Under the pieces are notes generated by a model, which was given only the letters and a program-made list of their open reading frames with translations, was not told the DNA's origin and did no database searches. From a virus (lineage: Duplodnaviria > Caudoviricetes): 56,366 nucleotides of DNA. Positions 2,260 through 38,303 of this stretch are shown piece after piece. Location: the IMG/VR virus record IMGVR_UViG_3300028920_000081, positions 1 through 56,366 of that record; one strand, written 5' to 3'. Positions within the stretch are counted from its first letter, which is position 1; every line of letters begins with the position of its first letter. Both the position numbers and the translations under genes were made by a program.

Positions 2260-2484
2260 ATGGCAGAAACAAAATCTAAAGACAAATATAATTTTAAGAC
2301 AGAACTTTCTGTATTATTAGAATTTTTACTGAGAACAATAGGATACGGATTTCCGTTAAATGTTTTTCTTACTACTGTTTTTGGTCTTCCTTTTACCTTG
2401 TTTTCTTGGATAGGTTATGGAATAGGTTTTTGGTTTTTAGAATTTAAATTAACAAAAATTGTAAGGAGCATTTTTTTTAGATAA
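2260..2484 (+). CDS. Small membrane protein (2 TM)
   Basis: Long hydrophobic stretches; lies between TerL and portal. Confidence 0.7.
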   Translation: MAETKSKDKYNFKTELSVLLEFLLRTIGYGFPLNVFLTTVFGLPFTLFSWIGYGIGFWFLEFKLTKIVRSIFFR

Positions 2485-3812
2485 TGGGTATAATTCAAGA
2501 ACTATTTGATACTCAAGGGAAGGCTTACGAATTAGCAGGTTCTAAAACTTCAGATGATTCTAATCCTATTTCAATTAAACTTTCTGATAAAAAAAATGAA
2601 GTTGAGAGAGTTGAACCTGTTGAATTGGAACAAGTATATTATTCTGATCCTATTTCTTTTAACTCTATTAATAAATCTACCCAAATGATTATGGCTGCTG
2701 GATATGAATTTAGAGGGGAAAATGCAGATTATTTTGAGGAATTTTTCAAGAATATAGGAAAGGTGGGGGATAATTTAACTTTTGATGAATTACTTGAAGG
2801 AATATTCAGAAATCAAATGATATATGGGAATGCTTATGTTGAATTAGTTAATGGGAAAAAAACAGGGGATATTGTTGATATTACTTTAATAGATTCTAAG
2901 AATATGGATTTAGCAAGAAATACAGATGGTAAAGTTGTTACGGATAATTATGGAAGACCAGTAGGATATGTTCAGAAAGTTCCTTATGGATATAATACAG
3001 ATGGTAAGGGAGATAAAGTTCCTCCAGAAGTTAATTTAAATAATGGGATATTTTTAAAGGCTGAAAGAATATGCCAATTTAAATTATATGCTATTGGTGA
3101 TAGATTTTCTGGAGTTGGATTAATAGAACCTGCTTATAAATCAATTTATAGGAGATTGAGCATTGAAGAAGCACAGACTAATTCAATTTATACTAAAGGA
3201 ACATTTCCTGTTCTTGCTTCAGTTGGAGATGAACTTCATCACCCAACACCTAGTATGACTAATGATACTCTTAAAATGTTAAGAAATTTAAAACATGATA
3301 GATACCTTGCTCACCCATATTATGTTAAACCTTATCCATTAGAAGTTAAGCAGCCAGATATAGTTGATCAATCTTTAATTTATTTGAGAAAAAATATTAC
3401 TGCATCTCTTGGAGTTCCAGAAGCTTTTGCTGTTGGAAGTGGAGAAGCAACAAATAGAGCTACTTTAAATAACCAACAAAGATTTTTAGAATTTACTTTA
3501 AGAGATATAATTAAAAGAACTATTTCTACTTTCCAAAAATATGTTTCTTCTAAAATTGCTGAAGTTAATTTAAAAACTGAAAAATATCCTGAACTGCACT
3601 TTGGAGATGTTGGAGTAGAGGAGATTAATGATAAGTCAAAAAGATTAGTTTCTTATGTTGAAAAGGGAATATTATTTCCAGAAGATATTAGGTCTTATGC
3701 TATAAAGTCTGAAGGTTTAGAAGCTGGGGAAAAAGGGGAAAGTAAAGAAGAAAAGAAAGAGGAACCAAAAGAAGAAAAGAAAGAAAAAGGAGGTAAGGAA
3801 GATGCCGAATAA
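2484..3812 (+). CDS. Portal protein
   Basis: Position after TerL; IYGNAYVEL, GVGLIEP, ASLGVPEAF...GEATNRAT portal motifs; charged C-terminal tail. Confidence 0.9.
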   Translation: MGIIQELFDTQGKAYELAGSKTSDDSNPISIKLSDKKNEVERVEPVELEQVYYSDPISFNSINKSTQMIMAAGYEFRGENADYFEEFFKNIGKVGDNLTFDELLEGIFRNQMIYGNAYVELVNGKKTGDIVDITLIDSKNMDLARNTDGKVVTDNYGRPVGYVQKVPYGYNTDGKGDKVPPEVNLNNGIFLKAERICQFKLYAIGDRFSGVGLIEPAYKSIYRRLSIEEAQTNSIYTKGTFPVLASVGDELHHPTPSMTNDTLKMLRNLKHDRYLAHPYYVKPYPLEVKQPDIVDQSLIYLRKNITASLGVPEAFAVGSGEATNRATLNNQQRFLEFTLRDIIKRTISTFQKYVSSKIAEVNLKTEKYPELHFGDVGVEEINDKSKRLVSYVEKGILFPEDIRSYAIKSEGLEAGEKGESKEEKKEEPKEEKKEKGGKEDAE

Positions 3813-4122
3813 TTTAATATTGACAGATGCTGGAGAAACTATTAATATTCAAAAAGCTTTTGCTGAAAGTTATGATTCAAATGCTGAAGTTATAAAGATT
3901 ATGCCTTATACTGATTTATTGACACAGGTAATATCTTATAATGGAAGTGGCTTTGCAGAATATCTTGGTTTTGCTCCTCCTGGAACTGCAAAAGATTCTG
4001 CAGGGTGGATGATTAAGAAATTAGTTTATTCTGGAACAAATGTAACAGATATTCAATTTGCTGATGGTGATACTAAGTTTGATAATATCTGGGATAATAG
4101 AGAATCTTTAAGTTATAGTTAA
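3802..4122 (+). CDS. Conserved viral hypothetical (possible virion) protein
   Basis: YLGFAPPG...WMIKK...FDNIWDNRESLSYS motif recalled from phage structural regions. Confidence 0.6.
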   Translation: MPNNLILTDAGETINIQKAFAESYDSNAEVIKIMPYTDLLTQVISYNGSGFAEYLGFAPPGTAKDSAGWMIKKLVYSGTNVTDIQFADGDTKFDNIWDNRESLSYS

Positions 4123-4123: not shown

Positions 4124-5245
4124 ATGAAAAAATTACTTTATTTGATTGGAGCAATATTTTTAATTGGATTGATTTCTGCATATTCTACTACCTTTAATCC
4201 ATTTACCGGAAAATTAGATTATGTTGGTATTGGAAGTGAAAATATTAATGTTACAGGATATAATGTTACTGCAGATTATTTTTGTATTGGAGATACTTGT
4301 TATAACACTTTTGGTGGTAATTCTTCTTGGAATGAAAGTCATGCAGACACTTTGTATTATTCTATTTTAAATCCTTATGGTTTTTATAATTCTACTGATT
4401 TTAATATCACTGATTATTATACTAAATCAAATATAAATAATTTTAATTATTGGAATAGCACAAGTAATGGATTTAATGAAACTTATGCTGATGGATTATA
4501 TGTTAATGTTGATGGAGATAATATGACCGGAAATTTGAATATGAGTGGAAACAATATTACAAATATCAGCAATTTAGTTGGTAGTGGAGATAATATTGTA
4601 ATAGGGGACGCAGGAGTAGATTCTCATTCTCTTACTAGCGATGACGATTTATTTGTTTCTGGAAAATTGGAAGTTGATGGAACTATAGAATTTGATAGTT
4701 TAGTTTCTTTTAATCCTTCTGGAGGACTTTCTTCATGGGTTATTAAAGAAAGTGGAAATTCATTTCTTGGAGCATTACCTATAGCAGATGATGGAGTTCA
4801 TTTTGGTATTGTTGGAACAGATGGAAGAAGTAATTACAACCTTATTTTCACAGATTATGCTAATAGGGAAGATGATTATGACCATAGCATTCCAAGCACC
4901 AATCCAACTATTTTTCTACATTCTGCAACAGACCCAGATACAGATAATACTCAATGGGGAAGTCTTTCTCACGATACTCAAAGCTTTCAAATAGATTCAG
5001 GAACTAATATGACAGAAATAACTTCACAAGCAGAAGTTAATCAAGAACTATATGCTGGTGATGATTTAATTGTTGGAGACCCTGGTTCTGAAATTGATTT
5101 ATTTACTATAAGTGTTAATGGAACTCATGTTGTAATTAATTCAAGTTATGGATTACCAGTTTCAATAGGAAATGCTACAGATATTTGGGCTACATTCCTT
5201 TCAAATGGAACACTACAATTAAATTACGGATGTATAGGATGTTAA
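4124..5245 (+). CDS. Secreted, N-glycosylation-sequon-rich fibre-like protein
   Basis: Signal peptide MKKLLYLIGAIFLIGLISA; about 17 N-x-S/T sequons in 373 aa; YVNVDGDNMTGNLNM fibre-type motif. Confidence 0.75.
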   Translation: MKKLLYLIGAIFLIGLISAYSTTFNPFTGKLDYVGIGSENINVTGYNVTADYFCIGDTCYNTFGGNSSWNESHADTLYYSILNPYGFYNSTDFNITDYYTKSNINNFNYWNSTSNGFNETYADGLYVNVDGDNMTGNLNMSGNNITNISNLVGSGDNIVIGDAGVDSHSLTSDDDLFVSGKLEVDGTIEFDSLVSFNPSGGLSSWVIKESGNSFLGALPIADDGVHFGIVGTDGRSNYNLIFTDYANREDDYDHSIPSTNPTIFLHSATDPDTDNTQWGSLSHDTQSFQIDSGTNMTEITSQAEVNQELYAGDDLIVGDPGSEIDLFTISVNGTHVVINSSYGLPVSIGNATDIWATFLSNGTLQLNYGCIGC

Positions 5246-5246
5246 A

Positions 5247-5900
5247 ATGCCAGAAATAATTACTGAACCAAAAGAAACTAGCATAAAGTTAGGTATAGGA
5301 ATATTCATTTTAGTTGCACTTCTTGGAACTGCATTTATTATCCCAGAAGGTTATGATGCTTATCAATGTAATGATAATGATCAAACAATCGTTGGATTAT
5401 GTTTTAAGTTAAGTGCAGTAAATTCAGATGGATTACAAACAAGATGTTATTATAATGAATCTGCACCTAGAACTTATAAGAATTGTAAAACAGGCTGGAT
5501 TAAATACGACGAAAAAATTGTTGTTGGTAATGAAACCAAAATTCCTACTTACATAGAATATACTGAAAAATCACTTAGAAAGGATTTTGTTAAAAAAATA
5601 GATGCAGAAGAATATATTATTGATTTAAAGAAAGAAGTCAAATCTAATGTAACTATTTTAAGAACAGAACAAAGACCCTTTTCTGATGAAATAGAAGTAT
5701 TCTGGAATGCTTTAATATATACAGAAGGGTATGAGGAAATAGATAATGGAACAATTATTACAAGAGAAGTTTTAAGTAATGAAACTCTTAGTTCAAAATT
5801 TTCAGAAGATTCTACTGAAGAACAAATAAATGAAACTATTTCTAAGCATGCAGAGGAATATTTAAACAGATGGAATCCAAATATTATTATTTCCTCGTAA
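5247..5900 (+). CDS. Membrane-anchored exported protein
   Basis: N-terminal TM helix (LGIGIFILVALLGTAFII), four Cys, several sequons. Confidence 0.7.
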   Translation: MPEIITEPKETSIKLGIGIFILVALLGTAFIIPEGYDAYQCNDNDQTIVGLCFKLSAVNSDGLQTRCYYNESAPRTYKNCKTGWIKYDEKIVVGNETKIPTYIEYTEKSLRKDFVKKIDAEEYIIDLKKEVKSNVTILRTEQRPFSDEIEVFWNALIYTEGYEEIDNGTIITREVLSNETLSSKFSEDSTEEQINETISKHAEEYLNRWNPNIIISS

Positions 5901-8614
5901 TTGCACTTCTTCTTCTAGTTGGTATTGCAGGAGCAACAATATGGGATTCTGATGGAGATTTAGAAGCATATTGGCATTTAGATGGAAATGGTTTAGATCA
6001 TTCATATAATTTAAATAATTTAAATATAAGTGGCCCAACAGTTGTAGATGGATATTATGGTCAAGCGTATCATTTTGATGGTGTTGATGATAATATGACT
6101 TTTTCTGATATAAATTTAACTGAATGGACTATAACTACTTGGATTAAACCAGATATGAATATGAACCAAGTTTTAATTGCAGGGTCTTATTCTCATTATA
6201 TTTATTATAATACCTTACAACTTTTTTATATTGTAGATTCTGGTGGAACTCATAACTTATTCTTAGATGGAGCAATTTCTACTGATTGGCAAATGTGGAC
6301 ATTAACCTATGATGGAACCGATTACCATGTGTATATTAATGGAGAAATAATTGATTTAATTCCTTCTTCAGATGCAGGTAATTATTTTACGGTTAATAGG
6401 TTAGGGGATGATGGAACTCACGTTCTTAATGGTAGTTTAGATGATTATAGAATTTATGATAGAGCCCTTACTGCTGCAGAAATTGGAGAACTTTATAATG
6501 CTTCCAATATTTCTAATCAAATAATCTTTAAGGGAAGCCCGGAACTTGTTTCATTTGAAAATGATAGTCTTCAAGGAAACCATACAACTACCAATTCTTC
6601 TGAAATGTTAGGACATTGGATGTTAGATGGAAATGCTTTGGATAATACTACAAATAATAATGATGGAACTCTTGGAGAAGATGTATTTTATTCAGATAAT
6701 TGTCTTGTAGGCCAATGTACTATATTTGATGCTATCGGAGATTATGTTGATGTAGGGGATATTGATTTTACTGGCAATTTTTCCATAAGTATGTGGGCTT
6801 ATTCTTATGATTGGGGTACTAATGATAGATTTATCTCCAAGGGATATACAAACAATGGTAATTTTTTTATAGCCTTTTATTCTGGAAGCACCCCAAGAGT
6901 TTATATGAAAGATTCAAATGGGAATATAATAGATAGTTCTAATAATTTTGATGATACTGAATTAGTTGCTGGAAAATGGTATCATCTTGTTTTAGTATAT
7001 AGCAATCTTTCTACGGTTAATCTTTATCTTAATGGTGAAAAAGATTCTTATACCTTGGACGCTAGTTCTTTAACAGGAATATTTAGTTCTGGAGATAATA
7101 TCTGGATTGGTAATGCAGATGATGGAAATGATGCCACTGCTTTTGATGGTGCCATAGACGAAGTAATAATTTTTAATAGGACTTTATCAGATTCTGAAGT
7201 TCAAGAAATTTATAATGAAAGTAAAGACCAAGGGAGTAATCTTGTAGGACATTGGAAACTAAACGGAAATGCTTTAGATTCTGGAGGAATTTTACACGGA
7301 AAAAATTATGGAAATTCTTACTTTTCAAATAAAGGAAAATTTTCTGGGGCAGCAAATGTTTATGGAGAGGGAGATTATATACAAAGCACACACTATTATG
7401 ATATAACTCCTATAAGGAATGAAACATTGTCTGTATGGTTCAAAAGGTTAGGAGATGGACCAAATGCTGCAACTTCTGAAGGTATTCTTTGCAATGCAGT
7501 TCCCACATTAAATGCACAATCAAATATATATCTTCAGGAATATGGAGAAGAAATAAATTGTGTTATGGCAACTAAAAATATTAATTATGGTTATTCTACA
7601 ACTAATGAATGGGTTCATGTTGTTTGCACAGAAGAATATGATAATTCTTCTGGGGAAGAAAGAGTAACAATATATATGTATGTCAATGGAGAACTTGTTA
7701 CTGGAGGTTATAAAACTGGAGTTTCTAGTTATCAATATATTTCAAATAGTATTTTGCTTGGGGTTCAAAAAACAAATGGTCATTCCTTTTTTAATGGATT
7801 AATAGACGATGCTAGAGTTTATGAAAGAGTATTAACAGTAGATGAAATAAAAGAATTATATAATGAATCCTTACAATCTCATAAAATTATTTTAAGAGGA
7901 AGTCCAGATAAAGAGGTAGTAGAAGATGATTTAGTAGGATATTGGAAAATGGATAATAACGCATCAGATTTATCTCCTTATAATAATGATGGGACTGTTT
8001 ATTCTGAAACAGGAAAAGCTTTTTTTGGAAATGGTAAATTCTTCAAGGGTTTTCAAACCTCTGGAGATGGTGGAGAAGATAATTATATTCTAGTTCCAGA
8101 TAGTGAGAGTATAGAGATGGACGGAAAAAATATGAGTGTTTCATTATGGTTTAAAATAAATAATTTAGATGATTCAATTAGTTATCTTTTTGCAAGAACA
8201 GGAAGGAGCAATGTGTCTTACACTGCAAGAGTTGGAAATAATGGAGGTTTATTGTTTGGAGGGTATTATTCTGGAGCAGGAGGATTTAATTCTGTAACTT
8301 CTTCTGGATTTGGAATAGGAAAATGGTATCATGCAGTATTTATAGCAAATGGGACTAATTTAAATATTTATATTAATGGAGAATTAAACGCAACCGATTC
8401 ACAAAATCCTTTATTTCCTTTTCATGGAAAAGATGATATAGCAGATTTAAAAATTGGGGGATATGGATATGCTTCCGCACAACAATTTCCTTTTGATGGT
8501 GTTATTGATGAATTCAGATTATATAATAGAACACTAACAGATTCTGAAATAAGATCTCTTTATAATGAATCTACTCATTCAAATAAATTCGTAATAAGAG
8601 GTAACATTTATTAA
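5870..8614 (+). CDS. Secreted protein with four LamG/ConA-like lectin domains
   Basis: Signal peptide; four units of (Y/H)WxLDGNAxD...W(Y/V)H...YxNG...FxGxIDxxRxY(D/N)RxLxxxEIxxLYN. Confidence 0.9.
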   Translation: MESKYYYFLVIALLLLVGIAGATIWDSDGDLEAYWHLDGNGLDHSYNLNNLNISGPTVVDGYYGQAYHFDGVDDNMTFSDINLTEWTITTWIKPDMNMNQVLIAGSYSHYIYYNTLQLFYIVDSGGTHNLFLDGAISTDWQMWTLTYDGTDYHVYINGEIIDLIPSSDAGNYFTVNRLGDDGTHVLNGSLDDYRIYDRALTAAEIGELYNASNISNQIIFKGSPELVSFENDSLQGNHTTTNSSEMLGHWMLDGNALDNTTNNNDGTLGEDVFYSDNCLVGQCTIFDAIGDYVDVGDIDFTGNFSISMWAYSYDWGTNDRFISKGYTNNGNFFIAFYSGSTPRVYMKDSNGNIIDSSNNFDDTELVAGKWYHLVLVYSNLSTVNLYLNGEKDSYTLDASSLTGIFSSGDNIWIGNADDGNDATAFDGAIDEVIIFNRTLSDSEVQEIYNESKDQGSNLVGHWKLNGNALDSGGILHGKNYGNSYFSNKGKFSGAANVYGEGDYIQSTHYYDITPIRNETLSVWFKRLGDGPNAATSEGILCNAVPTLNAQSNIYLQEYGEEINCVMATKNINYGYSTTNEWVHVVCTEEYDNSSGEERVTIYMYVNGELVTGGYKTGVSSYQYISNSILLGVQKTNGHSFFNGLIDDARVYERVLTVDEIKELYNESLQSHKIILRGSPDKEVVEDDLVGYWKMDNNASDLSPYNNDGTVYSETGKAFFGNGKFFKGFQTSGDGGEDNYILVPDSESIEMDGKNMSVSLWFKINNLDDSISYLFARTGRSNVSYTARVGNNGGLLFGGYYSGAGGFNSVTSSGFGIGKWYHAVFIANGTNLNIYINGELNATDSQNPLFPFHGKDDIADLKIGGYGYASAQQFPFDGVIDEFRLYNRTLTDSEIRSLYNESTHSNKFVIRGNIY

Positions 8615-9651: not shown

Positions 9652-10103
9652 TGGAAAATTTAATTGAAACTGGTGGAAAAATAGAAGAAGTAAAAGAATC
9701 TCCAACGTCTAATAATAAGATTAAAACAGACGTTAAATTAGTTAATGATTTAAAAAGATATTCAATGTTTTCTACTCTCCCAGATAATGCTAATATAGGG
9801 GATAATATTTATTTTAAGTATAAGGAAGTTAAAAAAGATGACAGAACATTCTATAATATCGACCATATAATTGCTGTAGAAAAGGTAGGAGATACTCCAA
9901 CAGATGGTGAAAAAAAAGCTATTATTAGACCTGAAAGAACTGAAAGTGATGAAAAGTCATTGAAAGCTTCTGAAATTGATTCTAATAAAGCTATTCTTAT
10001 GAGGTCTGCAGTAGAATTGTGTATAAAAAGAAATGATTTATCTGATGAATCTGTAGAAAAATCATATAATAGATTATTAAATTTGGTGAATAAAAGTGGC
10101 TAA
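9651..10103 (+). CDS. OB-fold (SSB-like) protein
   Basis: YSMF...IGDNIYFKY...FYNI beta pattern; paralogue of 39148..39594. Confidence 0.55.
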   Translation: MENLIETGGKIEEVKESPTSNNKIKTDVKLVNDLKRYSMFSTLPDNANIGDNIYFKYKEVKKDDRTFYNIDHIIAVEKVGDTPTDGEKKAIIRPERTESDEKSLKASEIDSNKAILMRSAVELCIKRNDLSDESVEKSYNRLLNLVNKSG

Positions 10104-10734
10104 AGTAGTTATGGCTGTTCCGATATATGTATCTCAAGACCCTAAAATTAGAAAGAACCACGAATGGATAAGAAAAACCTCTAAGCACGAAGTTCTTCTT
10201 TTGGAAGTTTCTGGAATTACAATAGTTAATGCAAGACAGATTATTCAAGATAAATTTTTAGAAACAGATGCAGATTATTTCTTTATGCTAGATGATGATT
10301 TATTCTTTTATGATGTCCCACATATCAATCCTCTAGATAAACTTATTGAATTAAATAAAGATGTTGTTGGAGCATTATACGTAATAAAACACCCTCCTCA
10401 TTATCCAGTTTATAGGCCAATAGATTTGCAGAGAGAATATGAGAAAACAGGAAAATTTCCAAATTATAAATTTGAAATTCCTACAGAAGTTTTTGAAGCT
10501 GAATGGATTGGGGGTGGTTGTATTCTTGCTAAAAGAGAAGTGATAGAAAAAATCGCAGCTAAATATCATTATGCTTATTGTCCTATGGTTCATTGTGGAG
10601 AATTTTTAGGGGAAGATTATTCTTTTTGTAAAAGAGCAAGAGATTTAGGATATTCTATTTGGATGGACCCCTCGATAAAAATTGGACATCAAGGAAAATA
10701 TTTCTATTCTTTAAGTGATTATAACCCTAATTGA
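10096..10734 (+). CDS. Glycosyltransferase, GT-A/GT2-like
   Basis: DYFFMLDDD (DxD), GGGCIL, GEDYSFC...DPSIKIGH. Confidence 0.85.
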   Translation: MAKVVMAVPIYVSQDPKIRKNHEWIRKTSKHEVLLLEVSGITIVNARQIIQDKFLETDADYFFMLDDDLFFYDVPHINPLDKLIELNKDVVGALYVIKHPPHYPVYRPIDLQREYEKTGKFPNYKFEIPTEVFEAEWIGGGCILAKREVIEKIAAKYHYAYCPMVHCGEFLGEDYSFCKRARDLGYSIWMDPSIKIGHQGKYFYSLSDYNPN

Positions 10735-10798: not shown

Positions 10799-11992
10799 AT
10801 GGCTTACAAAACTTTAATACTTGGAGAAGAAACTCTTTCTAAAAACGATGTTCTAAAAGTCCCTCATATTATAAAAAATAAAGTTTTGATGGCTCCTGGA
10901 ACTTGGAATGATATGAATTATACTTCTGAAGATATTAAACAAGCTTTTGAAAACACTAATTGGAGTGATAAAGATGTTTGTTCTTTAATTTTAGATCATG
11001 CAGATAAACCTCTCTCTTTAAAAGATTGGGTTGGCTGGGTTAAAAATCCTAGATTTGATGAAGCTAGTGGAAAAGTATTAGGAGATTTAGAATTTTATGA
11101 TGAAAATATTCTTACTAAGGTTTTAGTTGCTGGTGCTAGATGTGGAGTATCTCCAAAGGTTAGGGGAGATGAAATGGACGGTTTTTTAAGAAATTTTACT
11201 TTTGAAAATTTTTCAGTAGTTACAAATCCTGCTGTAAAAAAAGCTTACATAAATCTTTCTGAAAATTATTCTTGTGAATGTTTAAAATGTGGTCATACTA
11301 TTCAAACAAAAGAACATTGTAGGGATATTAAATGTCCTAAATGTGGAGGAGAAATGAGAAGGTCTGAAAGACCTGGCCCAGGTCAAGAAAATTCAAATTT
11401 TAAAGAGGTGAAAGGAGGTTTAAAAAAAGAAATGTCCGAAGATAAAATTGAAGAAAAAGTTGATGAAAAAGAAAAAGAAGAAAAATCTGAAGTAAAGGAA
11501 GAAGAAAAAGATGAAGAATCTAAGGAATCTGAATCTGAAGAAGAAGAAAAAACTTCTGAAGAAATGAGTGATTTATTAGAGGTTTCATCAAATGAAGACT
11601 GGCCTGGATTTGTTAAATCAATGAAAGAAAAGAAATCTGACGTTACTCTAAGTGAGATAATGAAAGCTTACAAAGAAGGAAGGGAAGCTTCTGCTAAGCT
11701 AGAAGAATTATCTACTGATGAGATTGTTAAGAGAGTAAATGAATTAACAGCAGTCTTGAAAAAGAGAAACAATGCAATTCCTGAACCTAAGAAAGATAAT
11801 ACTCAAGAAATGGCTAATGAAATAAAAGATTTGAAAAATCAAATCAAAGAAATGTCTGCTAAGATGAATGAACCAGATTCAAAATCTGTTCATAACCTTT
11901 CAGAACAAAGCTATACTTTAGAGGAAAAACATCATTCTGATGGTGTAATGGGAATGGCGGACTTTTTGAAAAAGTTAAAAAACGAACAATGA
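10799..11992 (+). CDS. Prohead protease/scaffold with internal Zn-ribbon
   Basis: ILDH, GVSP, FSVVTNPA protease motifs; CLKCG...HC...CPKCGG; acidic/coiled-coil C-terminus; directly upstream of MCP. Confidence 0.8.
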   Translation: MAYKTLILGEETLSKNDVLKVPHIIKNKVLMAPGTWNDMNYTSEDIKQAFENTNWSDKDVCSLILDHADKPLSLKDWVGWVKNPRFDEASGKVLGDLEFYDENILTKVLVAGARCGVSPKVRGDEMDGFLRNFTFENFSVVTNPAVKKAYINLSENYSCECLKCGHTIQTKEHCRDIKCPKCGGEMRRSERPGPGQENSNFKEVKGGLKKEMSEDKIEEKVDEKEKEEKSEVKEEEKDEESKESESEEEEKTSEEMSDLLEVSSNEDWPGFVKSMKEKKSDVTLSEIMKAYKEGREASAKLEELSTDEIVKRVNELTAVLKKRNNAIPEPKKDNTQEMANEIKDLKNQIKEMSAKMNEPDSKSVHNLSEQSYTLEEKHHSDGVMGMADFLKKLKNEQ

Positions 11993-13137: not shown

Positions 13138-13224
13138 AGGTAAAAACATACCATTCGTGTGGAAGTTGTTAAAACAACAGGCCTCCTTAGGAGGTATCAC
13201 GAAATTAAATTTAGGAGGAAAAAA

Positions 13225-13826: not shown

Positions 13827-13866
13827 ATTTATAAAGTCCATTATACATAGGATTATATAATGGATA
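13827..13866 (+). promoter_or_regulatory. 40-bp TATA + palindromic operator + ATG, copy 1 (exact inverted copy at 39758-39797)
   Basis: ATTTATAAAGTCCATTATACATAGGATTATATAATGGATA; arms TCCATTATA/TATAATGGA with 10-nt spacer. Confidence 0.9.
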
Positions 13867-14540
13867 CATTAATTGTTGGTCGTGGGGAGATTGGTAAATC
13901 TCTTTATTCTGTTTTAAAGGATTCTTATAATGTTAATATAGTGGACATTAGTGATACTAGTGAGATGCTTCCAGGAATAATGCATATTTGTTTTCCTTAT
14001 TCTGAAAGATTTGTAGAACAAGTTAAAGCATATCAAAAATATTATGAACCTACATATACAATAATTCATTCTACTGTTCCTGTTGGAGTATCTAAGAAAT
14101 GTAATGCAATTCATTCTCCTTGCGTCGGGATACACCCTCATTTAGCAAAGAGTCTGAAAACTTTTACTAAGTTTCTTGGAGGAGAAAAAGCTAGTGAAGT
14201 TGCTCAATATTTTAGAAGGGCTGGAATTAATATTTATTTATTTGATAAGTCGGAAACAACAGAATTAATGAAAGTTCTTTCTACAAGTTTTTATGGATTG
14301 CTAATAGAATGGACTAAGGAAGTTAAAAGACAATGCGAAAAATATGATGTTCCTTTTGAAGCATGGACTTTATGGACTAATAATTATAACAGAGGATATA
14401 ATCTTCTTGGGTACCCAGAATATACCAGACCAAATTTAATTCCTATAAAAACTAAGATTGGTGGGCATTGCATTATTCCTAATTTAGATTTTTTAGAAGG
14501 AACTTTTTTTAAATTAATTAAGGAGTTGAATAATGGTTAA
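13860..14540 (+). CDS. Nucleotide-sugar (UDP-glucose/GDP-mannose-type) dehydrogenase-like protein, lacking C-terminal domain
   Basis: IVGRGEIG, IIHSTVPVG, ETTELMK, IGGHCI (catalytic Cys). Confidence 0.8.
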   Translation: MDTLIVGRGEIGKSLYSVLKDSYNVNIVDISDTSEMLPGIMHICFPYSERFVEQVKAYQKYYEPTYTIIHSTVPVGVSKKCNAIHSPCVGIHPHLAKSLKTFTKFLGGEKASEVAQYFRRAGINIYLFDKSETTELMKVLSTSFYGLLIEWTKEVKRQCEKYDVPFEAWTLWTNNYNRGYNLLGYPEYTRPNLIPIKTKIGGHCIIPNLDFLEGTFFKLIKELNNG

Positions 14541-15600
14541 ATTTAATTGGAGGCAAAAAGATAATTATGTTTTTCTTCAGAATAAAGATATTGAAATCCA
14601 CTTTGAAGTTCCAAATAATTTTAAATTAAATGATACCCATCCAACTTTATTAAGATTAGTTGAATATTTAGTCTTTGGTCCTTTTGAGAAAGAGGTTTTT
14701 AAAAGAAGTGATATTCTTAAATGGAAGAAAAGAGTATTTAAAAAAACAGGAGATATTGCTCTTTCATGGAGTACTGGAAAGGACTCTACTGCTGCAATGT
14801 TAGTTCTCCCAGAAAATACTTTATTATTTTATCATCAAAGAGATGAATATCTTGGAGGTTCACTAGACCAAGATAACGCATTTAGATTTATAAATCATAT
14901 TAAAGGAAAAAAGAGATTATTTGTTTCTAAATCTAATCAAGAAAAAGTTAGAATGTTGCATGGAAAAGAAAGGGGTTTTTCTACACCCTTTAGTTGTGTT
15001 GCTGGTCTTGTTTTATTAGCTGATCATTTTAAATTAAATTATATCGCTACTGGGACTATGTTAGATTCTACTTTTATTGAAAAAGGATGTAAATATAGAG
15101 ATTTAAAAGAATTTTGGAGTAGATGGGGGCTTATTTTTGGTAGAGCTGGTTTAAAGCTTGTGCTTCCTGTTGGAAATATTTCAGAGGTTTTAACAAGCAA
15201 GATAGTTTCTATGAGTGAATATGATGAATATTCTTTTTCTTGTATAAGAGGGAATAATGGAAAGGCTTGTGGGAAATGTTATAAATGTTTTAGAAAAAAT
15301 CTTTTAGATGGAAAGGAAGTGATTTATTCTTCAAATGCAGATAGAGCTCTTTATCATTCAGATCATTTACATCAAGGAGATGCTTTAATTTGGGCGTATC
15401 AAAGGAGTAATTTAAAAATTCCTAGATTAGAAGAATATAGAAATCTTGATTTGTCTTTTTTGGAAAGATATTATCCTCTTGGGAATCATTTAATTCCAGA
15501 AAAATATAGATCTTTTGTATTGGAAAAATTTAAAGAATATGATATTAAACCAATGAATAAGGAGGATATTAAGAAACTCAAAAAAATAGATATAAAATGA
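14533..15600 (+). CDS. PP-loop (adenine nucleotide alpha-hydrolase, QueC/DUF6395-like) protein
   Basis: ALSWSTGKDSTAA PP-loop; SCIR...CGKCYKCFRK Zn motif. Confidence 0.65.
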   Translation: MVKFNWRQKDNYVFLQNKDIEIHFEVPNNFKLNDTHPTLLRLVEYLVFGPFEKEVFKRSDILKWKKRVFKKTGDIALSWSTGKDSTAAMLVLPENTLLFYHQRDEYLGGSLDQDNAFRFINHIKGKKRLFVSKSNQEKVRMLHGKERGFSTPFSCVAGLVLLADHFKLNYIATGTMLDSTFIEKGCKYRDLKEFWSRWGLIFGRAGLKLVLPVGNISEVLTSKIVSMSEYDEYSFSCIRGNNGKACGKCYKCFRKNLLDGKEVIYSSNADRALYHSDHLHQGDALIWAYQRSNLKIPRLEEYRNLDLSFLERYYPLGNHLIPEKYRSFVLEKFKEYDIKPMNKEDIKKLKKIDIK

Positions 15601-16511
15601 TAAAAGTTTTTTTAATTGCTACTGGTTATTCTGATAATTTTAATCATGTATTTGGTGGAAGTCCAATGGAATATTTGTCTCTCAAAACTGCTTTTGATAG
15701 GGAAAAAGATTATATCTTTGAAGTTATGCCTCAATCAAAATTTGATTTTGAAGTAGTAAAGAGGAAAAGAGAAGAAGGTTATATTATCCATTGTGAATCT
15801 TGGACTTGCCTATGTAAATTATATAAGGAAAATTTTATTCCAGATGTTTTAGGTCCAACAATTCAATCTCCTTTTAAAAATGAACAAAGATTACAAAGTT
15901 TAAAGGATATAAATTTTCCTATTGATAATTACTTTTTATCTACAGTTATTAGAAATAATTCTGCAGAAGAAAGATCTTATCCAGAAATGGCCAAAAAAAT
16001 TAAGTATATTCACTTGGGGGTTGATACTGATAAGCTTAAACCTTCTAATAATGAAAAAAAATTAATTCTTTGGGCAGGAGATTCTTCTCGTTCTTGTAAG
16101 AATTTTGAATTAATGAAAGAAATAATGAAGATTACTAAACTTCCAAAACCTTATGAATTTAAGATATTATCTCAGTATAATGTATTAGATTATTGGAATA
16201 TCCTTAATCAAACAAAGATAGTTATTAATACAAGCAAATGGGAAAGCTTTTGTTTTGCTATGTTTGAAGCAGAATCTAAAGGAGTTCCAGTTATTTATAA
16301 AAAAGGCTTACATGGAAATGTTCATAAAGACAATCATATACAAGTAGAAAATACTCCAGAAGCATATAGGGACAAAATATTAGAATTATTAAATAATGAA
16401 GAATTATATAAAAAAGAAAGCAAATATGCCAGAGATTATACTATTAAAAATTCAAGTTATGAGATGATGGTTAAAACTTTTGGGGATATTTATAAGGGGA
16501 TTAAAAAATGA
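15597..16511 (+). CDS. Glycosyltransferase, GT-B/GT4-like
   Basis: LGVDTDKLKP, TSKWESFCFAMFEAESKGVPVI (Ex7E). Confidence 0.85.
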   Translation: MIKVFLIATGYSDNFNHVFGGSPMEYLSLKTAFDREKDYIFEVMPQSKFDFEVVKRKREEGYIIHCESWTCLCKLYKENFIPDVLGPTIQSPFKNEQRLQSLKDINFPIDNYFLSTVIRNNSAEERSYPEMAKKIKYIHLGVDTDKLKPSNNEKKLILWAGDSSRSCKNFELMKEIMKITKLPKPYEFKILSQYNVLDYWNILNQTKIVINTSKWESFCFAMFEAESKGVPVIYKKGLHGNVHKDNHIQVENTPEAYRDKILELLNNEELYKKESKYARDYTIKNSSYEMMVKTFGDIYKGIKK

Positions 16512-17200
16512 TAGTTTTTTTTAGAGATGATGATGTAGATGAAGTTAATCCTCAATTAACTAATTTGGTTAAGATGTTTGCAGAGGAAAAAGTTCCTATT
16601 AATTTAGAAGTTGTTCCTGGGAGAGTTGGAATTAGTACAACGCCAATAAATAATTTAAAGAATTTTTTTAATAAATATAAAGATTTTATAGAGGTTCATC
16701 AACATGGATTTAATCATTTTGAATATGCTCCAAGAAATGAATTTCCTGATGAGAGGATAAATTTAGTGGTTAGTGAAGAAATTAAGGCAGGAAAGATATT
16801 TTTAGAAACTTATTTCAAGGAATTTTTTTATCCTGCATTTACTCCCCCCTGGCATAGAATAGGAAAATTTCATATCCCAGTAATAGAAAAATTAGGCTTT
16901 AAGATAATTTCTGCAGGATTTAATTTAAATCATAAACTAAAAGATTTATCTGTTTATACTGACCTCTCTATATTTGATAATAAACTTAAAAAAAGTAGAT
17001 TTGCTACAAAAGAAGAATTAATTGAAAAGTTTGAAAAACTTAAGAAAGAAAAATCTTCTGAAATGATAGGATTTTATCTTCACCATAAGTTCTATAAAAC
17101 TCCGGAATCTATAGAACCTATAAGAGAATTTATTAAATATTTAAAAGAAAAGGAGGTAAAAATTAAAACATTTAGTCAAATATGGGAGCTTCACAAATAA
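16508..17200 (+). CDS. Polysaccharide deacetylase (NodB/CE4-like)
   Basis: FFRDDDV, HQHGFNH, FTPPWHR, YLHH. Confidence 0.85.
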   Translation: MIVFFRDDDVDEVNPQLTNLVKMFAEEKVPINLEVVPGRVGISTTPINNLKNFFNKYKDFIEVHQHGFNHFEYAPRNEFPDERINLVVSEEIKAGKIFLETYFKEFFYPAFTPPWHRIGKFHIPVIEKLGFKIISAGFNLNHKLKDLSVYTDLSIFDNKLKKSRFATKEELIEKFEKLKKEKSSEMIGFYLHHKFYKTPESIEPIREFIKYLKEKEVKIKTFSQIWELHK

Positions 17201-17673
17201 GTTACGTTCCAGCATTATGGGATATTGCAAATAGTGGATTTAAACCTAATAAGGTTTTAGAATTAGGTTGTGGTTGTAGTTCTTTCATGCTTAGATGGTT
17301 ATTTGAAAAGTCAAAATTACATATAATAGATGATAATTCCATTTGGTTTAATTGTACTGAAAATATGGGGGGATATTCAGCAGATTTTAGAAAATTAGCT
17401 AGAACCAAGCAGGATTTTTTAGACGGAATATTACAATTTGGAAAAATGGATTTGATCTTTGTAGATTGTGGACGTAGAGGGGATTATTCAGATAAATGGA
17501 GAAGTGATTTTTTGAAATTAATTAGGGAGAAAAAAATATTAAATCCAGAAGGGTTGATAATTTTACATGATGCAACTCGTCCTGAATATCAAGAAGAATG
17601 TAAAAATTGGGAATGTGATAAAAAGAAAGAGGAGGATACTTACATTTTAAAATGGCCTTTGAACCAAAAATAG
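17182..17673 (+). CDS. Class I SAM-dependent methyltransferase
   Basis: VLELGCGCSS, DLIFVD, GLIILHDA. Confidence 0.85.
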   Translation: MGASQISYVPALWDIANSGFKPNKVLELGCGCSSFMLRWLFEKSKLHIIDDNSIWFNCTENMGGYSADFRKLARTKQDFLDGILQFGKMDLIFVDCGRRGDYSDKWRSDFLKLIREKKILNPEGLIILHDATRPEYQEECKNWECDKKKEEDTYILKWPLNQK

Positions 17674-18485
17674 ATTTTGTAATTTCAGTAAGGGATAGAG
17701 ACAATAAAAGAATACAGATATGTGTAAATAGTCTTTTATCTAATATTACAAATAAGATATATGTTGTGGACTATGGTTCTAAAAAACCTATTAAGGGTTT
17801 AAAAAATTGTAAAGTAATAAGAGTTGATACTAAAAATAGATGGAACAAATGCCATGCTTTAAATATAGGAATAAAAAAATGCAAATCTTCCTATATTGGA
17901 ACAGTTGATTGTGATATGGTTATTGGGAATTGTTTTATGAAAAAAGTAAAGGAACATTTAAAGGGAGATGTTTTTCTTTTTACTCGTTCTGTTGCTAGGA
18001 TTGCTCCAGATCTTTTAGATTGGGGATTAGATAGAGAAAAGCTTATTAGACTTTCTTCTCCTTGGTCTGAAACAAAACTTCCGAGTTTGCATGCTGCTGT
18101 TGGAGGAATACAAATATTTCCAAAATGGTGGATTTTTAGAATAAGAGGATATGATGAAAATCTTACTTATTGGGGGGGAATGGATAATGATATATATGAA
18201 AGAGCATTTAGAACAGAATTGATTATGATTGATATTAATGAAATAATCTTTCATCAAGAACATAAGAATGTTAAAGAACAGAATTTAACTTCTAAAAAAG
18301 AGCAGGAAACTGCTTTATCTGAAAGACAAAAAAGAAGAATATATCTTATGTATAAATGGACTAAAAATATTAATGTTGGACCTAAAACATGGGGTGCTCC
18401 AACTAAACCTCAACAAAATCAAATAAATATTAATTTTCAAAATGGCAAAAAGAAAAAAGATACTGTTAGCAATAATAAGCAATAG
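17652..18485 (+). CDS. Glycosyltransferase GT2 with GT7C-like C-terminus
   Basis: YVVDYGS, LNIGIK, TVDCD, GYDENLTYWGGMDND. Confidence 0.9.
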   Translation: MAFEPKIDFVISVRDRDNKRIQICVNSLLSNITNKIYVVDYGSKKPIKGLKNCKVIRVDTKNRWNKCHALNIGIKKCKSSYIGTVDCDMVIGNCFMKKVKEHLKGDVFLFTRSVARIAPDLLDWGLDREKLIRLSSPWSETKLPSLHAAVGGIQIFPKWWIFRIRGYDENLTYWGGMDNDIYERAFRTELIMIDINEIIFHQEHKNVKEQNLTSKKEQETALSERQKRRIYLMYKWTKNINVGPKTWGAPTKPQQNQININFQNGKKKKDTVSNNKQ

Positions 18486-19077
18486 AAAATATTATCCTGC
18501 ATATTTTGTTAGGAGTGTTTTTGCAATAGCAAATCATACAAGACAATTTCATGACTTGGATATACAAACTTTTGAATCAGTTGAAGTTCAGCAAATGAGA
18601 AATAACGCATGCCATTTTGCTATTCATCATAAATATGATTATCTCTTTATGTTAGATGATGATATGAATTATCCTCAAAAATGTATAGTTGAATTAATGA
18701 AGCATAAGAAAGAATTTGTTGTTGGGAGTGCAACTCAAAGACGACCTCCATTCTATCCTACTCAATATAAAAATTTAAATGCAAAAAGATTTAAGGATAA
18801 AGTTAATAGAGTTTTTATAACAAAAGAAGATAAAAAATTAATAGAAGTTGATGGCTCTGGAGTTGTTGGAGCTCTAATAAAGGTTGATTCTCTTAAAAAA
18901 TTAAAGGCACCTTATTTTAGATTAGTTTGGAAGAAAAATGGATTTGATATAATTGGGAGTGATGTTTATTTTTGTAAGGAATGGAGAAAAACAGGGAAAA
19001 AAATTTATTTAGACCCTAAAATAAATTATGATCACGAAATAACTGCTTTTTCTAATAGTTTTGGAATTGTAACATAA
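18442..19077 (+). CDS. Glycosyltransferase, GT-A/GT2-like
   Basis: DYLFMLDDDM, GSDVYFC...DPKINYDH; paralogue of 10096..10734. Confidence 0.85.
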   Translation: MAKRKKILLAIISNRKYYPAYFVRSVFAIANHTRQFHDLDIQTFESVEVQQMRNNACHFAIHHKYDYLFMLDDDMNYPQKCIVELMKHKKEFVVGSATQRRPPFYPTQYKNLNAKRFKDKVNRVFITKEDKKLIEVDGSGVVGALIKVDSLKKLKAPYFRLVWKKNGFDIIGSDVYFCKEWRKTGKKIYLDPKINYDHEITAFSNSFGIVT

Positions 19078-26480: not shown

Positions 26481-26907
26481 AATAACTATATCAAAAGGGG
26501 ATTATAGTGTTACAGTATATGCTACAGAGATAGATGAAGAATATAGTAATAAAATTTTTAATATCATTCCTCCACAATCTAAAAGTTCTCAAGGTTCTGG
26601 ACCTAAAGATGTTAAATTGGTAGATTTGCTTAGAATAACGCATCAAATTGCTATTAAAAGAGCTTATATAACTGCTAGTGATACAAAAACTGCAAAAGAA
26701 GTTAAAGATGATTTAAAATCTATTTTTAATGGTGGAGATGAAAATGGAGGAGAAGTGACATTAACCTATGATGGGGATAGTTTTACAGGATATATAGAAA
26801 AGTTAGGAATTACAGAAGATGCTAATGATGAACCAGATAATTATACCGGAAAAGATAATGCAAAATATCATATCCAAATCACATTCATAGAAGGGGTATC
26901 AATATAA
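26473..26907 (+). CDS. Distal tail-like protein
   Basis: Position after tape measure, size, beta-rich. Confidence 0.55.
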   Translation: MAEITISKGDYSVTVYATEIDEEYSNKIFNIIPPQSKSSQGSGPKDVKLVDLLRITHQIAIKRAYITASDTKTAKEVKDDLKSIFNGGDENGGEVTLTYDGDSFTGYIEKLGITEDANDEPDNYTGKDNAKYHIQITFIEGVSI

Positions 26908-38293: not shown

Positions 38294-38303
38294 TTTTCCT
38301 CCA

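What the first reader, a model, noticed from the sequence alone, without database searches (positions are those of the whole stretch)
4124..8614. Exported, sequon-rich glycoprotein cassette inside the head operon
Seen: three consecutive genes between portal and protease carry signal peptides or TM anchors. The 373-aa protein has about 17 N-x-S/T sequons, versus about 4 each in MCP and portal by my count. The 914-aa protein has four LamG lectin domains. Established: tailed virions assemble in the cytoplasm, whereas archaeal AglB N-glycosylation acts on exported proteins. Inference: either the virus remodels the host surface (exclusion, or changed attachment of the DPANN cell to its own host) or virions acquire glycoproteins outside the cytoplasm. 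I know of no described case of the latter for head-tail viruses.
Basis: partly seen in the sequence, partly recalled or inferred. Interest (0 to 1): 0.8.

Follow-up and report, generated by a model that had tools for sequence, protein, structure and literature searches.

The report
Exported glycoprotein module in archaeal tailed virus
An archaeal head-tail virus carries, inside its head and tail gene blocks, a conserved set of genes for fibre and lectin proteins that look exported and sugar-coated, which is odd because such virus particles are built inside the cell.

Summary
o373, o217 and o914 each start with a hydrophobic N-terminal segment. Each is enriched in N-x-S/T over shuffles (17 vs 7.6, 6 vs 2.1, 24 vs 13.3), while the reverse motif is not enriched. 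A 2472-aa protein in the tail block shows the same features far more strongly (152 vs 51, z 16).

The cassette is not a recent host capture. A four-part unit recurs in head blocks of distantly related low-GC virus contigs: a small cytoplasmic protein, then a signal-peptide fibre with an NPFTG motif at its mature end, then signal-peptide lectin-like protein(s), then a small membrane-anchored Cys protein. The small-protein/fibre pair occurs in 8 of 9 loci. Closer relatives lack the unit.

A full-length homologue in another phage contig (L012) starts directly at the NPFTG motif, with no signal peptide and no sequon enrichment. Across 48 family members, sequon enrichment tracks the signal peptide.

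The candidate host order has small genomes, and 96 of 101 sampled carry STT3/AglB.

Export plus N-glycosylation is likely (about 0.8). The destination is open: acting at the infected cell's surface (0.42) or being picked up by particles after export (0.33). The second would be without precedent in the papers I searched.

The parts
2484..3812 (+). Portal gene, upstream flank. Its 3' end overlaps the start of o106 by 11 nt.
   Evidence: PF04860 E 2.9e-11; phrog_9232; coordinates.
3802..4122 (+). o106: small protein with no hydrophobic segment, the conserved upstream partner of the fibre gene.
   Evidence: Homologues sit directly upstream of the signal-peptide NPFTG protein in L014, L017, L033, L034, L035, L038 and L040 (31-52% identity; 43% by tblastn; L017 frame). 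AF2 pLDDT is 70.7, with a four-stranded sheet at residues 41-87. BFVD gives 5 hits at E <= 1e-3, all uncharacterized Caudovirales proteins.
4124..5245 (+). o373: fibre-like protein. Signal peptide residues 1-19 (nt 4124-4180), NPFTG motif residues 25-29 (nt 4196-4210), C-terminal module about residues 135-347 (nt 4526-5164). 17 sequons.
   Evidence: The family has 48 proteins. The C-terminal module occurs in phage structural regions. N-terminal alignment is A4.
5247..5900 (+). o217: signal-anchored small protein (TM residues 15-33, nt 5289-5345) with a four-Cys ectodomain and 6 sequons, all after the TM segment.
   Evidence: Aligns with TM proteins of L033, L034 and L038, sharing the Cys pattern. 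Only L038 reaches blastp E 7e-4.
5870..8614 (+). o914: signal peptide (residues 1-22, nt 5870-5935) followed by four Laminin_G_3 lectin-fold domains. 24 sequons.
   Evidence: Relatives in the cassettes of L038 and L033. Best hit outside is 31% identity.
10096..10734 (+). Glycosyltransferase-like gene of the head block (context). It is conserved directly before the protease/scaffold gene in L015 and L016, which lack the cassette at that place.
   Evidence: phrog_1574 E 1e-19.
13860..19077 (+). Glycan-related gene cluster between MCP and tail genes (context). Holds a DUF6395 protein, GT1, a methyltransferase-like gene, GT2 and a second phrog_1574 GT-like gene.
26907..34325 (+). o2472: giant protein between tape measure/o144 and the tail hub. 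Hydrophobic N-terminus (residues 2-20), DUF2341 and Laminin_G_3 domains, 152 sequons spread along its whole length. The N-terminal domain (residues 2-195) is shared with cassette-linked proteins of other viruses.
34304..35857 (+). Tail hub (YQBQ-like), downstream flank of the giant.
   Evidence: PF24032 E 1.9e-9; phrog_400 and phrog_4930.

Best explanation
This is a conserved, late-operon module of a group of archaeal head-tail viruses. It makes extracytoplasmic, N-glycosylated adhesin-type proteins.

How it works:
1. o373 (fibre) and o914 (four lectin-fold domains) are made with cleavable Sec-type signal peptides.
2. o217 is a signal-anchored membrane protein.
3. o106 stays in the cytoplasm.
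4. The 2472-aa tail-block protein belongs to the same system.
5. After export, the host oligosaccharyltransferase AglB loads their many N-x-S/T sites. The glycan may be tailored by the virus's own glycosyltransferase-like genes.

Committed final step (inference): the complex stays on the outer face of the infected cell's envelope, held by o217, and binds envelope glycans there. That would mask receptors, excluding further infection and keeping progeny from sticking to debris, or would change cell adhesion.

Shown here: gene order, hydrophobic N-termini, sequon enrichment, conservation across viruses, homologues without a signal peptide, and STT3 in the candidate host order.

Inferred: export, cleavage, glycosylation, location and function.

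My odds: export plus N-glycosylation about 0.8; action at the cell surface 0.42.
For: - N-terminal hydrophobic segments, with small residues at -3/-1 in 9 of 9 signal-peptide NPFTG proteins (my reading of alignment A4).
- Sequon enrichment is specific to N-x-S/T and absent for control motifs.
- Within the window, enrichment is confined almost entirely to ORFs with such N-termini: 202 vs 75.6 expected in 7 ORFs, against 93 vs 81.1 in the other 75.
- In the o373 family, 26 members with a hydrophobic N-terminus have mean z +2.27. The 22 without have mean z -0.03.
- 8 of 9 signal-peptide NPFTG proteins have z >= 2.3. The two without a signal peptide have z 1.4 and -1.3.
- STT3 is over the cut-off in 96 of 101 genomes of the candidate host order.
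- A membrane-anchored partner family (o217) appears in 4 cassettes, which fits a complex held at the membrane.
- Every exported or membrane protein of a phage structural operon that I can recall (lambda Lom/Bor, HK97 gp15, T5 Llp) acts at the cell envelope and not in the virion.
- PMC11310336 reads LamG proteins and GTs of DPANN/CPR viruses as cell-surface modification (passages).
Against: - The module is tightly joined to the portal gene (11-nt overlap, 1-nt gaps). It keeps its place in head blocks of viruses whose portals are about 24% identical. That suits a structural role better than an accessory one.
- The fibre's C-terminal module and its N-terminal NPFTG motif occur in phage structural regions without a signal peptide.
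- The window holds no signal-peptide-less copy of o373 that could serve the virion while the exported copy masks receptors.
- The giant keeps the order tape measure, giant, hub in a second, distant virus, G302.
- Late co-expression with head genes is a poor fit for exclusion, which is needed early.
- A 2472-aa glycoprotein is a large cost for a non-virion product.
- No signal-peptide predictor, proteomics or expression data were available.
Confidence: 0.42

Rival explanations
1. Virion pick-up after export. The fibre, the lectin protein and the giant are true particle parts (head- or neck-proximal fibres and a tail-tip adhesin). They are exported and N-glycosylated first. They dock onto cytoplasm-built particles only when the membrane is breached at lysis, in the space under the S-layer. 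Docking would use the free N-terminal NPFTG strand exposed by signal-peptide cleavage. o106 could be the particle-side partner.
For: - L012 has a full-length homologue that begins at the same motif with no signal peptide, between TerL and portal.
- The C-terminal module lies next to MCP, portal or TerL in 5 other phage contigs.
- The N-terminus is conserved while the C-terminus varies, as in receptor-binding fibres.
- The cassette sits in the head block in all 5 loci where context is visible: window, L014, L033, L034, L038.
- It is translationally coupled to the portal gene.
- The order tape measure, giant, hub holds in two distant viruses.
- There is no other large fibre candidate without a signal peptide in the tail block.
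- o914 matches phrog_8510, annotated 'virion structural protein'.
- HRTV-DL1 particles gave faint glycoprotein-stained bands (PMC10384203, passages).
Against: - My five literature searches found no head-tail virus with a Sec-exported particle protein.
- Dilution after lysis argues against efficient docking.
- The o217 anchor suggests retention at the membrane.
- Deleting aglB did not affect HRTV-DL1.
- A virus of the same host order (G148:C1) has large structural-region proteins with no signal peptide and no sequon enrichment, so export is not required there.
- The giant's N-domain has no detectable likeness to known distal tail proteins.
Confidence: 0.33
2. Host-derived adhesins kept as accessory genes. 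The cassette would be captured cell-surface genes that help the small host cell attach to its own partner cell, as proposed in print for DPANN/CPR viruses.
For: - Giant LamG ORFs (1862-5280 aa open frames) occur in genomes of the candidate host order.
- Half of the six pieces examined are sequon-enriched (z 2.0, 2.9, 6.7).
- The cassette is absent from three relatives.
- PMC11310336 proposes this reading.
Against: - The best hit to o914 outside the window is 31% identity over 49% of the query, and 28-34% in host-order genomes.
- The cassette's GC (0.297-0.308) equals that of its surroundings.
- o373 and o106 belong to virus families, not cellular ones.
- There is no room for a separate promoter between portal and o106, so expression outside the late operon is not evident.
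- No integrase was seen in the window, but the record is about 65% complete.
Confidence: 0.1
3. No export. The hydrophobic N-termini would be buried anchors or membrane-insertion helices of particle proteins, kept soluble by chaperones as tape measure proteins are. The sequons would be used in the cytoplasm by the virus's own glycosyltransferases.
For: - Five GT-like genes, a sulfotransferase-like gene and two methyltransferases lie among the structural genes.
- One GT-like gene is a fixed member of the head block in relatives.
- Cytoplasmic N-x-S/T glycosylation exists in bacteria (HMW1C-type enzymes; recalled, not tested).
Against: - Enrichment is confined to proteins with export-type N-termini. 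MCP, portal, TerL, tape measure and hub are not enriched.
- The N-termini have the n/h/c layout and -3/-1 residues of cleaved signal peptides.
- No GT41-type family was seen among the Pfam hits.
Confidence: 0.08
4. Chance or composition. The sequons would simply follow from Asn-, Ser- and Thr-rich low-GC sequence.
For: - The proteins are rich in N (9.7-10.7%) and S+T (15-20%).
- 3 of 75 ORFs without the N-terminal segment also reach z >= 2.5.
Against: - Shuffles keep composition and still give z 3-16.
- The reverse and offset motifs are flat.
- The same signal is seen in independent homologues.
Confidence: 0.01

Closest known systems
Concanavalin/LamG proteins and glycosyltransferases of CPR/DPANN viruses (Nat Commun 2024, PMC11310336; passages read)
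   Same: Virus-encoded LamG-fold proteins and GTs in viruses of ultrasmall archaea, read as cell-surface modification and adhesion aids.
   Different: The passages I read mention no signal peptides, sequon enrichment, fibre partner, conserved four-gene unit or placement inside head and tail operons.
Exported or membrane 'moron' and exclusion proteins of tailed phages (lambda Lom/Bor, HK97 gp15, T5 Llp; recalled, not tested here)
   Same: Genes for envelope proteins lodged among structural genes, acting at the cell surface.
   Different: Those are single small genes, often with their own promoter. This is a multi-gene unit coupled to the portal gene, built from fibre and lectin folds, conserved across deep divergence. 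Neither o373 nor o914 has a lipobox Cys.
Spike glycoproteins of enveloped archaeal viruses (HRPV-1, HFPV-1; as summarised in PMC10384203, passages)
   Same: Virus adhesins that pass through the host's N-glycosylation route.
   Different: Those viruses bud through the membrane, so the topology is natural. This virus has TerL, portal, an HK97-type MCP, a tape measure and a hub, and such particles are built in the cytoplasm.
Head-tailed haloarchaeal virus HRTV-DL1 (PMC10384203; passages)
   Same: A tailed archaeal virus whose particle proteins gave faint glycoprotein-stained bands. Its ORF24, a candidate attachment protein, has nine sequons.
   Different: The passages I read mention no signal peptide. 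Deleting aglB had no effect on its life cycle. Enrichment over composition was not assessed there.
6-kb LamGL-like gene in the morphogenetic module of Poseidoniales viruses (PMC11706807; passages)
   Same: A giant LamG-type gene among head and tail genes of a marine archaeal tailed virus, with GT genes near tail or MCP genes read as glycosylation of particle proteins.
   Different: The paper gives its function as unknown, and 'signal peptide' occurs 0 times in its main text.

Membership tests
Laminin_G_3 / concanavalin A-like lectin fold (PF13385), for o914 | Profile match above Pfam's gathering score | tested here: met
   268.1 bits against a cut-off of 27.6, four stretches, E 2.9e-80.
Laminin_G_3 / concanavalin A-like lectin fold (PF13385), for o914 | Carbohydrate binding | not testable with these tools
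   Needs glycan arrays or binding assays.
Sec-type (class I) signal peptide or signal anchor | Short charged n-region, hydrophobic h-region within the first ~35 residues | tested here: met
   Kyte-Doolittle scan: o373 residues 4-22, o217 15-33, o914 7-25, o2472 2-20. AF2 models o373 residues 2-19 as a helix.
Sec-type (class I) signal peptide or signal anchor | Small residues at -3/-1 after the h-region (rule recalled) | tested here: met
   My reading of A4: 9 of 9 signal-peptide NPFTG proteins end the stretch with x-S/T/Y/A-A/G/S/T, 4-8 residues before the motif. o914 ends in A-G-A. o217 has no such site and reads as an anchor.
Sec-type (class I) signal peptide or signal anchor | Call by a trained predictor; actual export and cleavage | not testable with these tools
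   No SignalP or DeepTMHMM here, and no experiment.
AglB-dependent archaeal N-glycoproteins | N-x-S/T sites on the extracytoplasmic part, more than composition gives | tested here: met
   z 4.0, 3.1, 3.2 and 16.4, with control motifs flat. Window-wide contrast; family-wide.
AglB-dependent archaeal N-glycoproteins | Host has the oligosaccharyltransferase | tested here: met
   PF02516 is over the cut-off in 96 of 101 sampled genomes of the order of G001. The host assignment is itself indirect.
AglB-dependent archaeal N-glycoproteins | Glycan actually attached | not testable with these tools
   Needs glycoproteomics.
Phage moron (autonomous accessory insert) | Own transcription unit, set apart from neighbours | tested here: inconclusive
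   There is an 11-nt overlap with the portal gene and 1-nt gaps inside the cassette, which leaves no intergenic room. A promoter inside the portal gene cannot be excluded, and no archaeal promoter scan is available.
Phage moron (autonomous accessory insert) | Patchy presence among relatives | tested here: met
   Absent between portal and GT/protease/MCP in L015, L023 and L022. Present in L014.
Phage moron (autonomous accessory insert) | Foreign composition or close cellular source | tested here: not met
   GC 0.297-0.308, like its surroundings. Best outside hit to o914 is 31% identity.
Phage tail/head fibre or receptor-binding protein, for o373 | Match to a described fibre family or solved fibre | tested here: inconclusive
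   No Pfam or PHROG family, no PDB profile hit, no INPHARED hit. The AF2 model is poor (pLDDT 55.6) and the best VIA Z is 3.3.
Phage tail/head fibre or receptor-binding protein, for o373 | Conserved N-terminal end with swapped C-terminal parts, encoded among structural genes | tested here: met
   A4; varied lengths (101-1016 aa) and C-termini; contexts.
Phage tail/head fibre or receptor-binding protein, for o373 | Presence in particles | not testable with these tools
   The virus is uncultured.
Distal tail protein (Dit), for the N-domain of o2472 | Gene between tape measure and hub | tested here: met
   In the window o144 lies between tape measure and giant. In G302 the 1162-aa homologue directly follows the tape measure.
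Distal tail protein (Dit), for the N-domain of o2472 | Sequence or fold likeness to known Dit | tested here: inconclusive
   No PHROG or PDB match.
Lipoprotein-type exclusion proteins (Llp/Cor kind) | Lipobox Cys at the end of the signal peptide (recalled) | tested here: not met
   No Cys follows the hydrophobic stretch of o373 or o914.

The most novel reading that the evidence does not exclude
Head-tail particles of this virus group are finished outside the cytoplasm. Fibres, lectin proteins and a giant tail-tip adhesin are exported by Sec and N-glycosylated by the host's AglB, with glycans tailored by viral enzymes. They join cytoplasm-built capsids and tails only once the membrane opens, via the N-terminal NPFTG strand that signal-peptide cleavage exposes. 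My five literature searches found no tailed virus with Sec-exported, N-glycosylated particle parts.
Probability: 0.33. Interest if true: 0.9.

Novelty: new variant of a known kind. Interest (0 to 1): 0.68.

Why it matters
Tailed viruses are assumed to be built wholly in the cytoplasm, so their particle proteins should escape the host's N-glycosylation route.

This work finds a conserved gene unit, welded to the portal and tail-tip genes of a group of archaeal tailed viruses, whose products bear every sequence mark of export and heavy N-glycosylation. One full-length relative in another phage contig lacks exactly those marks.

There are two possible outcomes:
- The virus group spends much of its late protein budget on rebuilding the infected cell's surface.
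- Particle assembly has an extracellular step.

This makes an open question in archaeal virology directly testable: how tailed viruses deal with a glycosylated S-layer envelope, and whether their particles carry glycans.

It also gives a simple sequence test (signal peptide plus sequon excess) for sorting virus adhesin genes in metagenomes.

Tried and rejected
- **AF2 of o373** with a 22-row alignment: poor (mean pLDDT 55.6; only residues 240-300 confident). VIA-align against 48,161 chains gave a best Z of 3.3, so no fold was assigned.
- **PDB sequence searches:** the o373 family profile gave 0 hits at E <= 1. o217 gave one hit at E 0.74, which I ignored. The giant's N-domain profile gave 0 hits at E <= 10.
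- **GenBank phages (INPHARED), tblastn:** no match for o373 or o106.
- **o106 model against PDB** (Foldseek): nothing at E <= 0.001.
- **ESM Atlas for o217:** no usable hit; structure rows had TM <= 0.37.
- **Complex prediction**, o106 with fibre residues 20-80: no answer (score 0.00 in both runs). I do not use this either way.
- **hhalign** of the o106 family against the proteins upstream of the signal-peptide-less fibres (L041, L012): probability 0.2, no relation.
- **PHROGs on the first 250 residues** of the giant and its two homologues, and on o144: nothing below E 0.06.
- **Sequencing runs:** no RNA holder listed.
- **Literature:** five searches found no description of signal-peptide-bearing, sequon-enriched proteins in head or tail operons of archaeal tailed viruses. 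The library lacks most subscription journals, and supplements were closed.
- **Considered and dropped by reading the sequences:** class III (pilin-type) signal peptides, because there is no K/R-G/A site before the hydrophobic stretch; and lipoproteins, because there is no lipobox Cys.
- **Chance or composition:** rejected by shuffles and control motifs.
- **Host-order LamG proteins as calibration:** mixed result, with 3 of 6 pieces enriched and 3 not. It neither helps nor hurts.

Full report
**What the window is.** The window is one whole IMG/VR virus record: linear, with a CheckV estimate of 65% complete. It encodes:
- a large terminase (815-2218) and a portal (2484-3812);
- an HK97-type major capsid protein (11989-13095);
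- neck proteins, a tape measure (25278-26480) and a tail hub (34304-35857).

An Alba-domain protein and a DUF2080 protein point to an archaeal host. GC is 0.26-0.34 throughout, and the cassette (0.297-0.308) does not stand out.

Gene order. Between portal and the protease/scaffold candidate lie o106 (3802-4122), o373 (4124-5245), o217 (5247-5900) and o914 (5870-8614). These are followed by o194, three small ORFs (80, 82 and 150 aa) and a glycosyltransferase-like gene.

N-termini. o373, o217 and o914 each start with a hydrophobic segment. o373 and o914 end it with small residues at -3/-1. o217 does not, and reads as a signal anchor (my reading). No trained predictor was available.

Sequons. Against 1000 composition-preserving shuffles:
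- o373: 17 vs 7.6 expected (z 4.0);
- o217: 6 vs 2.1 (z 3.1);
- o914: 24 vs 13.3 (z 3.2).

The reverse motif S/T-x-N, the adjacent N-S/T, N-x-x-S/T, and Q- or D-x-S/T are flat or depleted.

Lectin domains. o914 has four Laminin_G_3 stretches (E 2.9e-80).

**It reaches beyond the given coordinates.** A 2472-aa protein (26907-34325) lies between the tape measure/o144 and the hub. It has a hydrophobic N-terminus and DUF2341 and Laminin_G_3 domains. It carries 152 sequons against 51.4 expected (z 16.4; reverse motif z 0.1), spread over its whole length.

Over all 82 non-nested ORFs, 7 have such an N-terminus, and 5 of the 7 have z >= 2.8. Together these 7 hold 202 sequons against 75.6 expected. 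The other 75 hold 93 against 81.1, and 3 of the 75 reach z >= 2.5. One of those three is the protease/scaffold candidate. The one-sided Mann-Whitney p is 0.009.

**What o373 is.** It has no Pfam or PHROG family. The large protein collection gave 48 proteins including itself.

Its C-terminal part (about residues 135-347) is a module that also occurs, sometimes in tandem, in proteins of 11 IMG/VR contigs with GC from 0.34 to 0.63. Where neighbours could be named, the carrier gene lies beside MCP, portal or TerL (L004, L008, L009, L011, L012) or among baseplate and sheath genes (L006). Seven of the 11 carriers have no hydrophobic N-terminus. Four do (L003, L005, L008, L010), all at GC 0.51-0.63 (my reading).

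Across the 48 proteins:
- the 26 with a hydrophobic N-terminus have mean sequon z +2.27 (reverse motif +0.36);
- the 22 without have mean z -0.03 (reverse motif +0.83);
- four signal-peptide members that look bacterial to me have z of -0.5 to -1.5.

So sequon excess goes with export, and seemingly only in archaeal-type members.

**A conserved unit.**

The N-terminal motif. The mature end of o373 begins a few residues before an invariant N-P-F-T-G..D motif. A scan with that motif brought in further IMG/VR contigs. Together with L014 and a contig of genome G001 (L017), there are nine proteins with a signal peptide followed at once by the motif: window, L014, L017, L033, L034, L035, L036, L038 and L040. 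Their lengths run from 101 to 1016 aa and their C-terminal parts differ. Eight of the nine have sequon z >= 2.3 (up to 12.9). The 101-aa one has none.

The upstream partner. In eight of the nine, an o106 homologue with no hydrophobic segment lies directly upstream (31-52% identity). L036 has none.

What follows. In all seven loci where downstream sequence exists, the fibre is followed by one or more further proteins with hydrophobic N-termini. Those of L033 and L038 are LamG relatives of o914. That of L036 shares the N-domain of the giant.

The membrane protein. A small membrane-anchored protein with a shared four-Cys pattern aligns with o217 in L033, L034 and L038. Only L038 is supported by blastp (E 7e-4), so this fourth member is the weakest.

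Position. The unit sits in the head block in all five loci where context is visible:
- after the portal in the window, L014, L034 and L038;
- before the protease and MCP in the window and L034;
- after the MCP in L033.

The portals of L034 and L038 are only about 24% identical to the window's.

**Relatives without the marks.**
- L012 (GC 0.43) has a protein that starts Met-Pro-Trp and then the same motif. It also shares the C-terminal module (38% over 112 residues). It has no signal peptide, and its sequon z is -1.3. It lies between TerL and portal.
- L041 (GC 0.57) has a motif-level match, again at the very N-terminus, just after a 781-aa protein in the portal position that no PHROG family named. 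Its z is 1.4.
- The proteins upstream of these two are unrelated to o106.

**Relatives without the unit.** L015 (portal 54% identical) goes straight from portal to the GT-like gene, protease/scaffold and MCP. L023 and L022 also lack the unit. L015 does carry a large signal-peptide protein further on, with 45 sequons against 19.7 expected (z 7.0). So the unit is old and mobile among these viruses, and it is not universal.

**The giant.** Its first ~195 residues, hydrophobic start included, are conserved in two other proteins:
- the 548-aa protein that follows the fibre in L036;
- a 1162-aa protein of G302, the record of L034 (CheckV 100% complete), with 68 sequons against 26.6 expected (z 9.5).

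In G302 that protein lies directly between the tape measure and a homologue of the window's hub. The same order in two viruses this far apart argues for a link to the tail tip.

**Host and glycosylation machinery.**

Host. The MCP has a 76% identical match on a 2.5-kb contig of a genome whose record title says Methanosarcinales. But the GTDB order of that genome holds genomes of 0.6-2.7 Mb. Two further genomes of the order have MCP relatives at 45-49% identity (3 of 301 searched). Pieces of these genomes have GC 0.29-0.37. A small-genome, DPANN-like host is therefore plausible but not shown.

Machinery. STT3/AglB is over Pfam's cut-off in 96 of 101 sampled genomes of the order.

Calibration. 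LamG-bearing ORF pieces from these genomes are mixed for sequon excess (z 6.7, 2.9, 2.0, 0.4, -1.6, -2.9).

Viral glycan genes. Among its structural genes the virus encodes three phrog_1574 GT-like genes, a GT1, a GT2, a sulfotransferase-like gene and two methyltransferases. These could tailor the lipid-linked glycan. That is inference.

**How it most likely works.** Export and N-glycosylation are the best reading of the sequence marks (about 0.8). I see two ways to read the last step.

For action at the cell surface (0.42):
- every exported or membrane protein of a phage structural operon that I can recall acts at the envelope;
- the unit includes its own membrane anchor;
- the same reading is already proposed for LamG proteins and GTs of DPANN/CPR viruses (PMC11310336, passages).

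For pick-up by particles after export (0.33):
- the unit is welded to the portal gene (11-nt overlap, 1-nt gaps);
- it keeps its place across deep divergence;
- the fibre family and its N-terminal motif occur without a signal peptide in other phages' structural regions;
- the window has no signal-peptide-less copy of the fibre and no other large fibre candidate in the tail block;
- the giant sits at the tail-tip position in two viruses;
- faint glycoprotein staining of HRTV-DL1 particle proteins is on record, although deleting aglB had no effect there (PMC10384203, passages).

I commit to surface action on prior grounds, by a narrow margin.

**Novelty.** In print already are LamG proteins and GTs in DPANN/CPR viruses (PMC11310336), a giant LamGL gene in a Poseidoniales virus morphogenetic module, and GT genes near MCP or tail genes (PMC11706807, passages). 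My five searches did not find:
- the signal-peptide and sequon signature;
- the conserved small-protein, fibre, lectin and anchor unit;
- the signal-peptide-less counterparts;
- the tape measure, giant, hub arrangement.

Supplements were closed and subscription journals are mostly absent from the library.

Noticed in passing
window 10096-10734, 13860-19077, 20870-21457, 23088-24486: A glycan toolkit is scattered among the head and tail genes: three phrog_1574 GT-like genes, a GT1, a GT2, a sulfotransferase-like gene, two methyltransferases and a DUF6395 protein.
   Followed up: partly
window 13159-13515: An H-type lectin domain protein (PF09458, E 4e-6) lies right after the MCP. Proteins with a similar N-terminus follow the MCP in L015 (11784-12641) and L023 (5561-5854), by my reading. 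It may be a capsid decoration.
   Followed up: partly
window 48701-49570 (-): A GGDEF-domain protein (E 1e-35) with a weak Csm1_B hit, in an archaeal virus. It may be a nucleotide cyclase.
   Followed up: no
window 37991-38347 (-), 45201-45971 (-), 52153-52752 (+): An Alba-domain protein, a Ku beta-barrel protein and an RNA ligase lie in the non-structural blocks. GC skew flips at about 36.5 kb and 50.3 kb, matching the strand switch.
   Followed up: no
window 43327-43782 (-): A 151-aa protein outside the structural region has an N-terminal TM segment and 3 sequons against 0.6 expected (z 3.3).
   Followed up: no
L035 1471-4839: A 1122-aa protein with no signal peptide and no sequon excess (z -0.7). 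Its N-terminal part resembles o914's LamG region (27%), and its middle matches PHROG 'minor head protein' phrog_4311. So a LamG-like part is fused to a head protein in a cassette-bearing virus.
   Followed up: partly
L003, L005, L008, L010 (GC 0.51-0.63): Higher-GC phage contigs carry o373-module proteins with signal-peptide-like N-termini. In L008 the gene lies between MCP and an endolysin. So fibre-like proteins with export signals in structural regions are not confined to archaeal viruses.
   Followed up: partly
L015 14524-17184: A relative that lacks the head cassette has a protein of more than 887 aa with a signal-peptide-like start and 45 sequons against 19.7 expected (z 7.0), just after its head-tail connector genes.
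   Followed up: partly
L042/L043 (G302:C1 ends): The tape measure gene of G302 appears to run across the end and start of the linear record. That fits a permuted complete genome.
   Followed up: no
L016 (record title) and the order of G001: The record title says Methanosarcinales, but the GTDB order of that genome holds genomes of 0.6-2.7 Mb with GC near 0.3. The label and the grouping seem at odds.
   Followed up: partly
window 4754-4775 and 16725-16746 (-): A 22-nt exact match between o373 and a gene in the glycan cluster. This is probably chance in AT-rich DNA.
   Followed up: no
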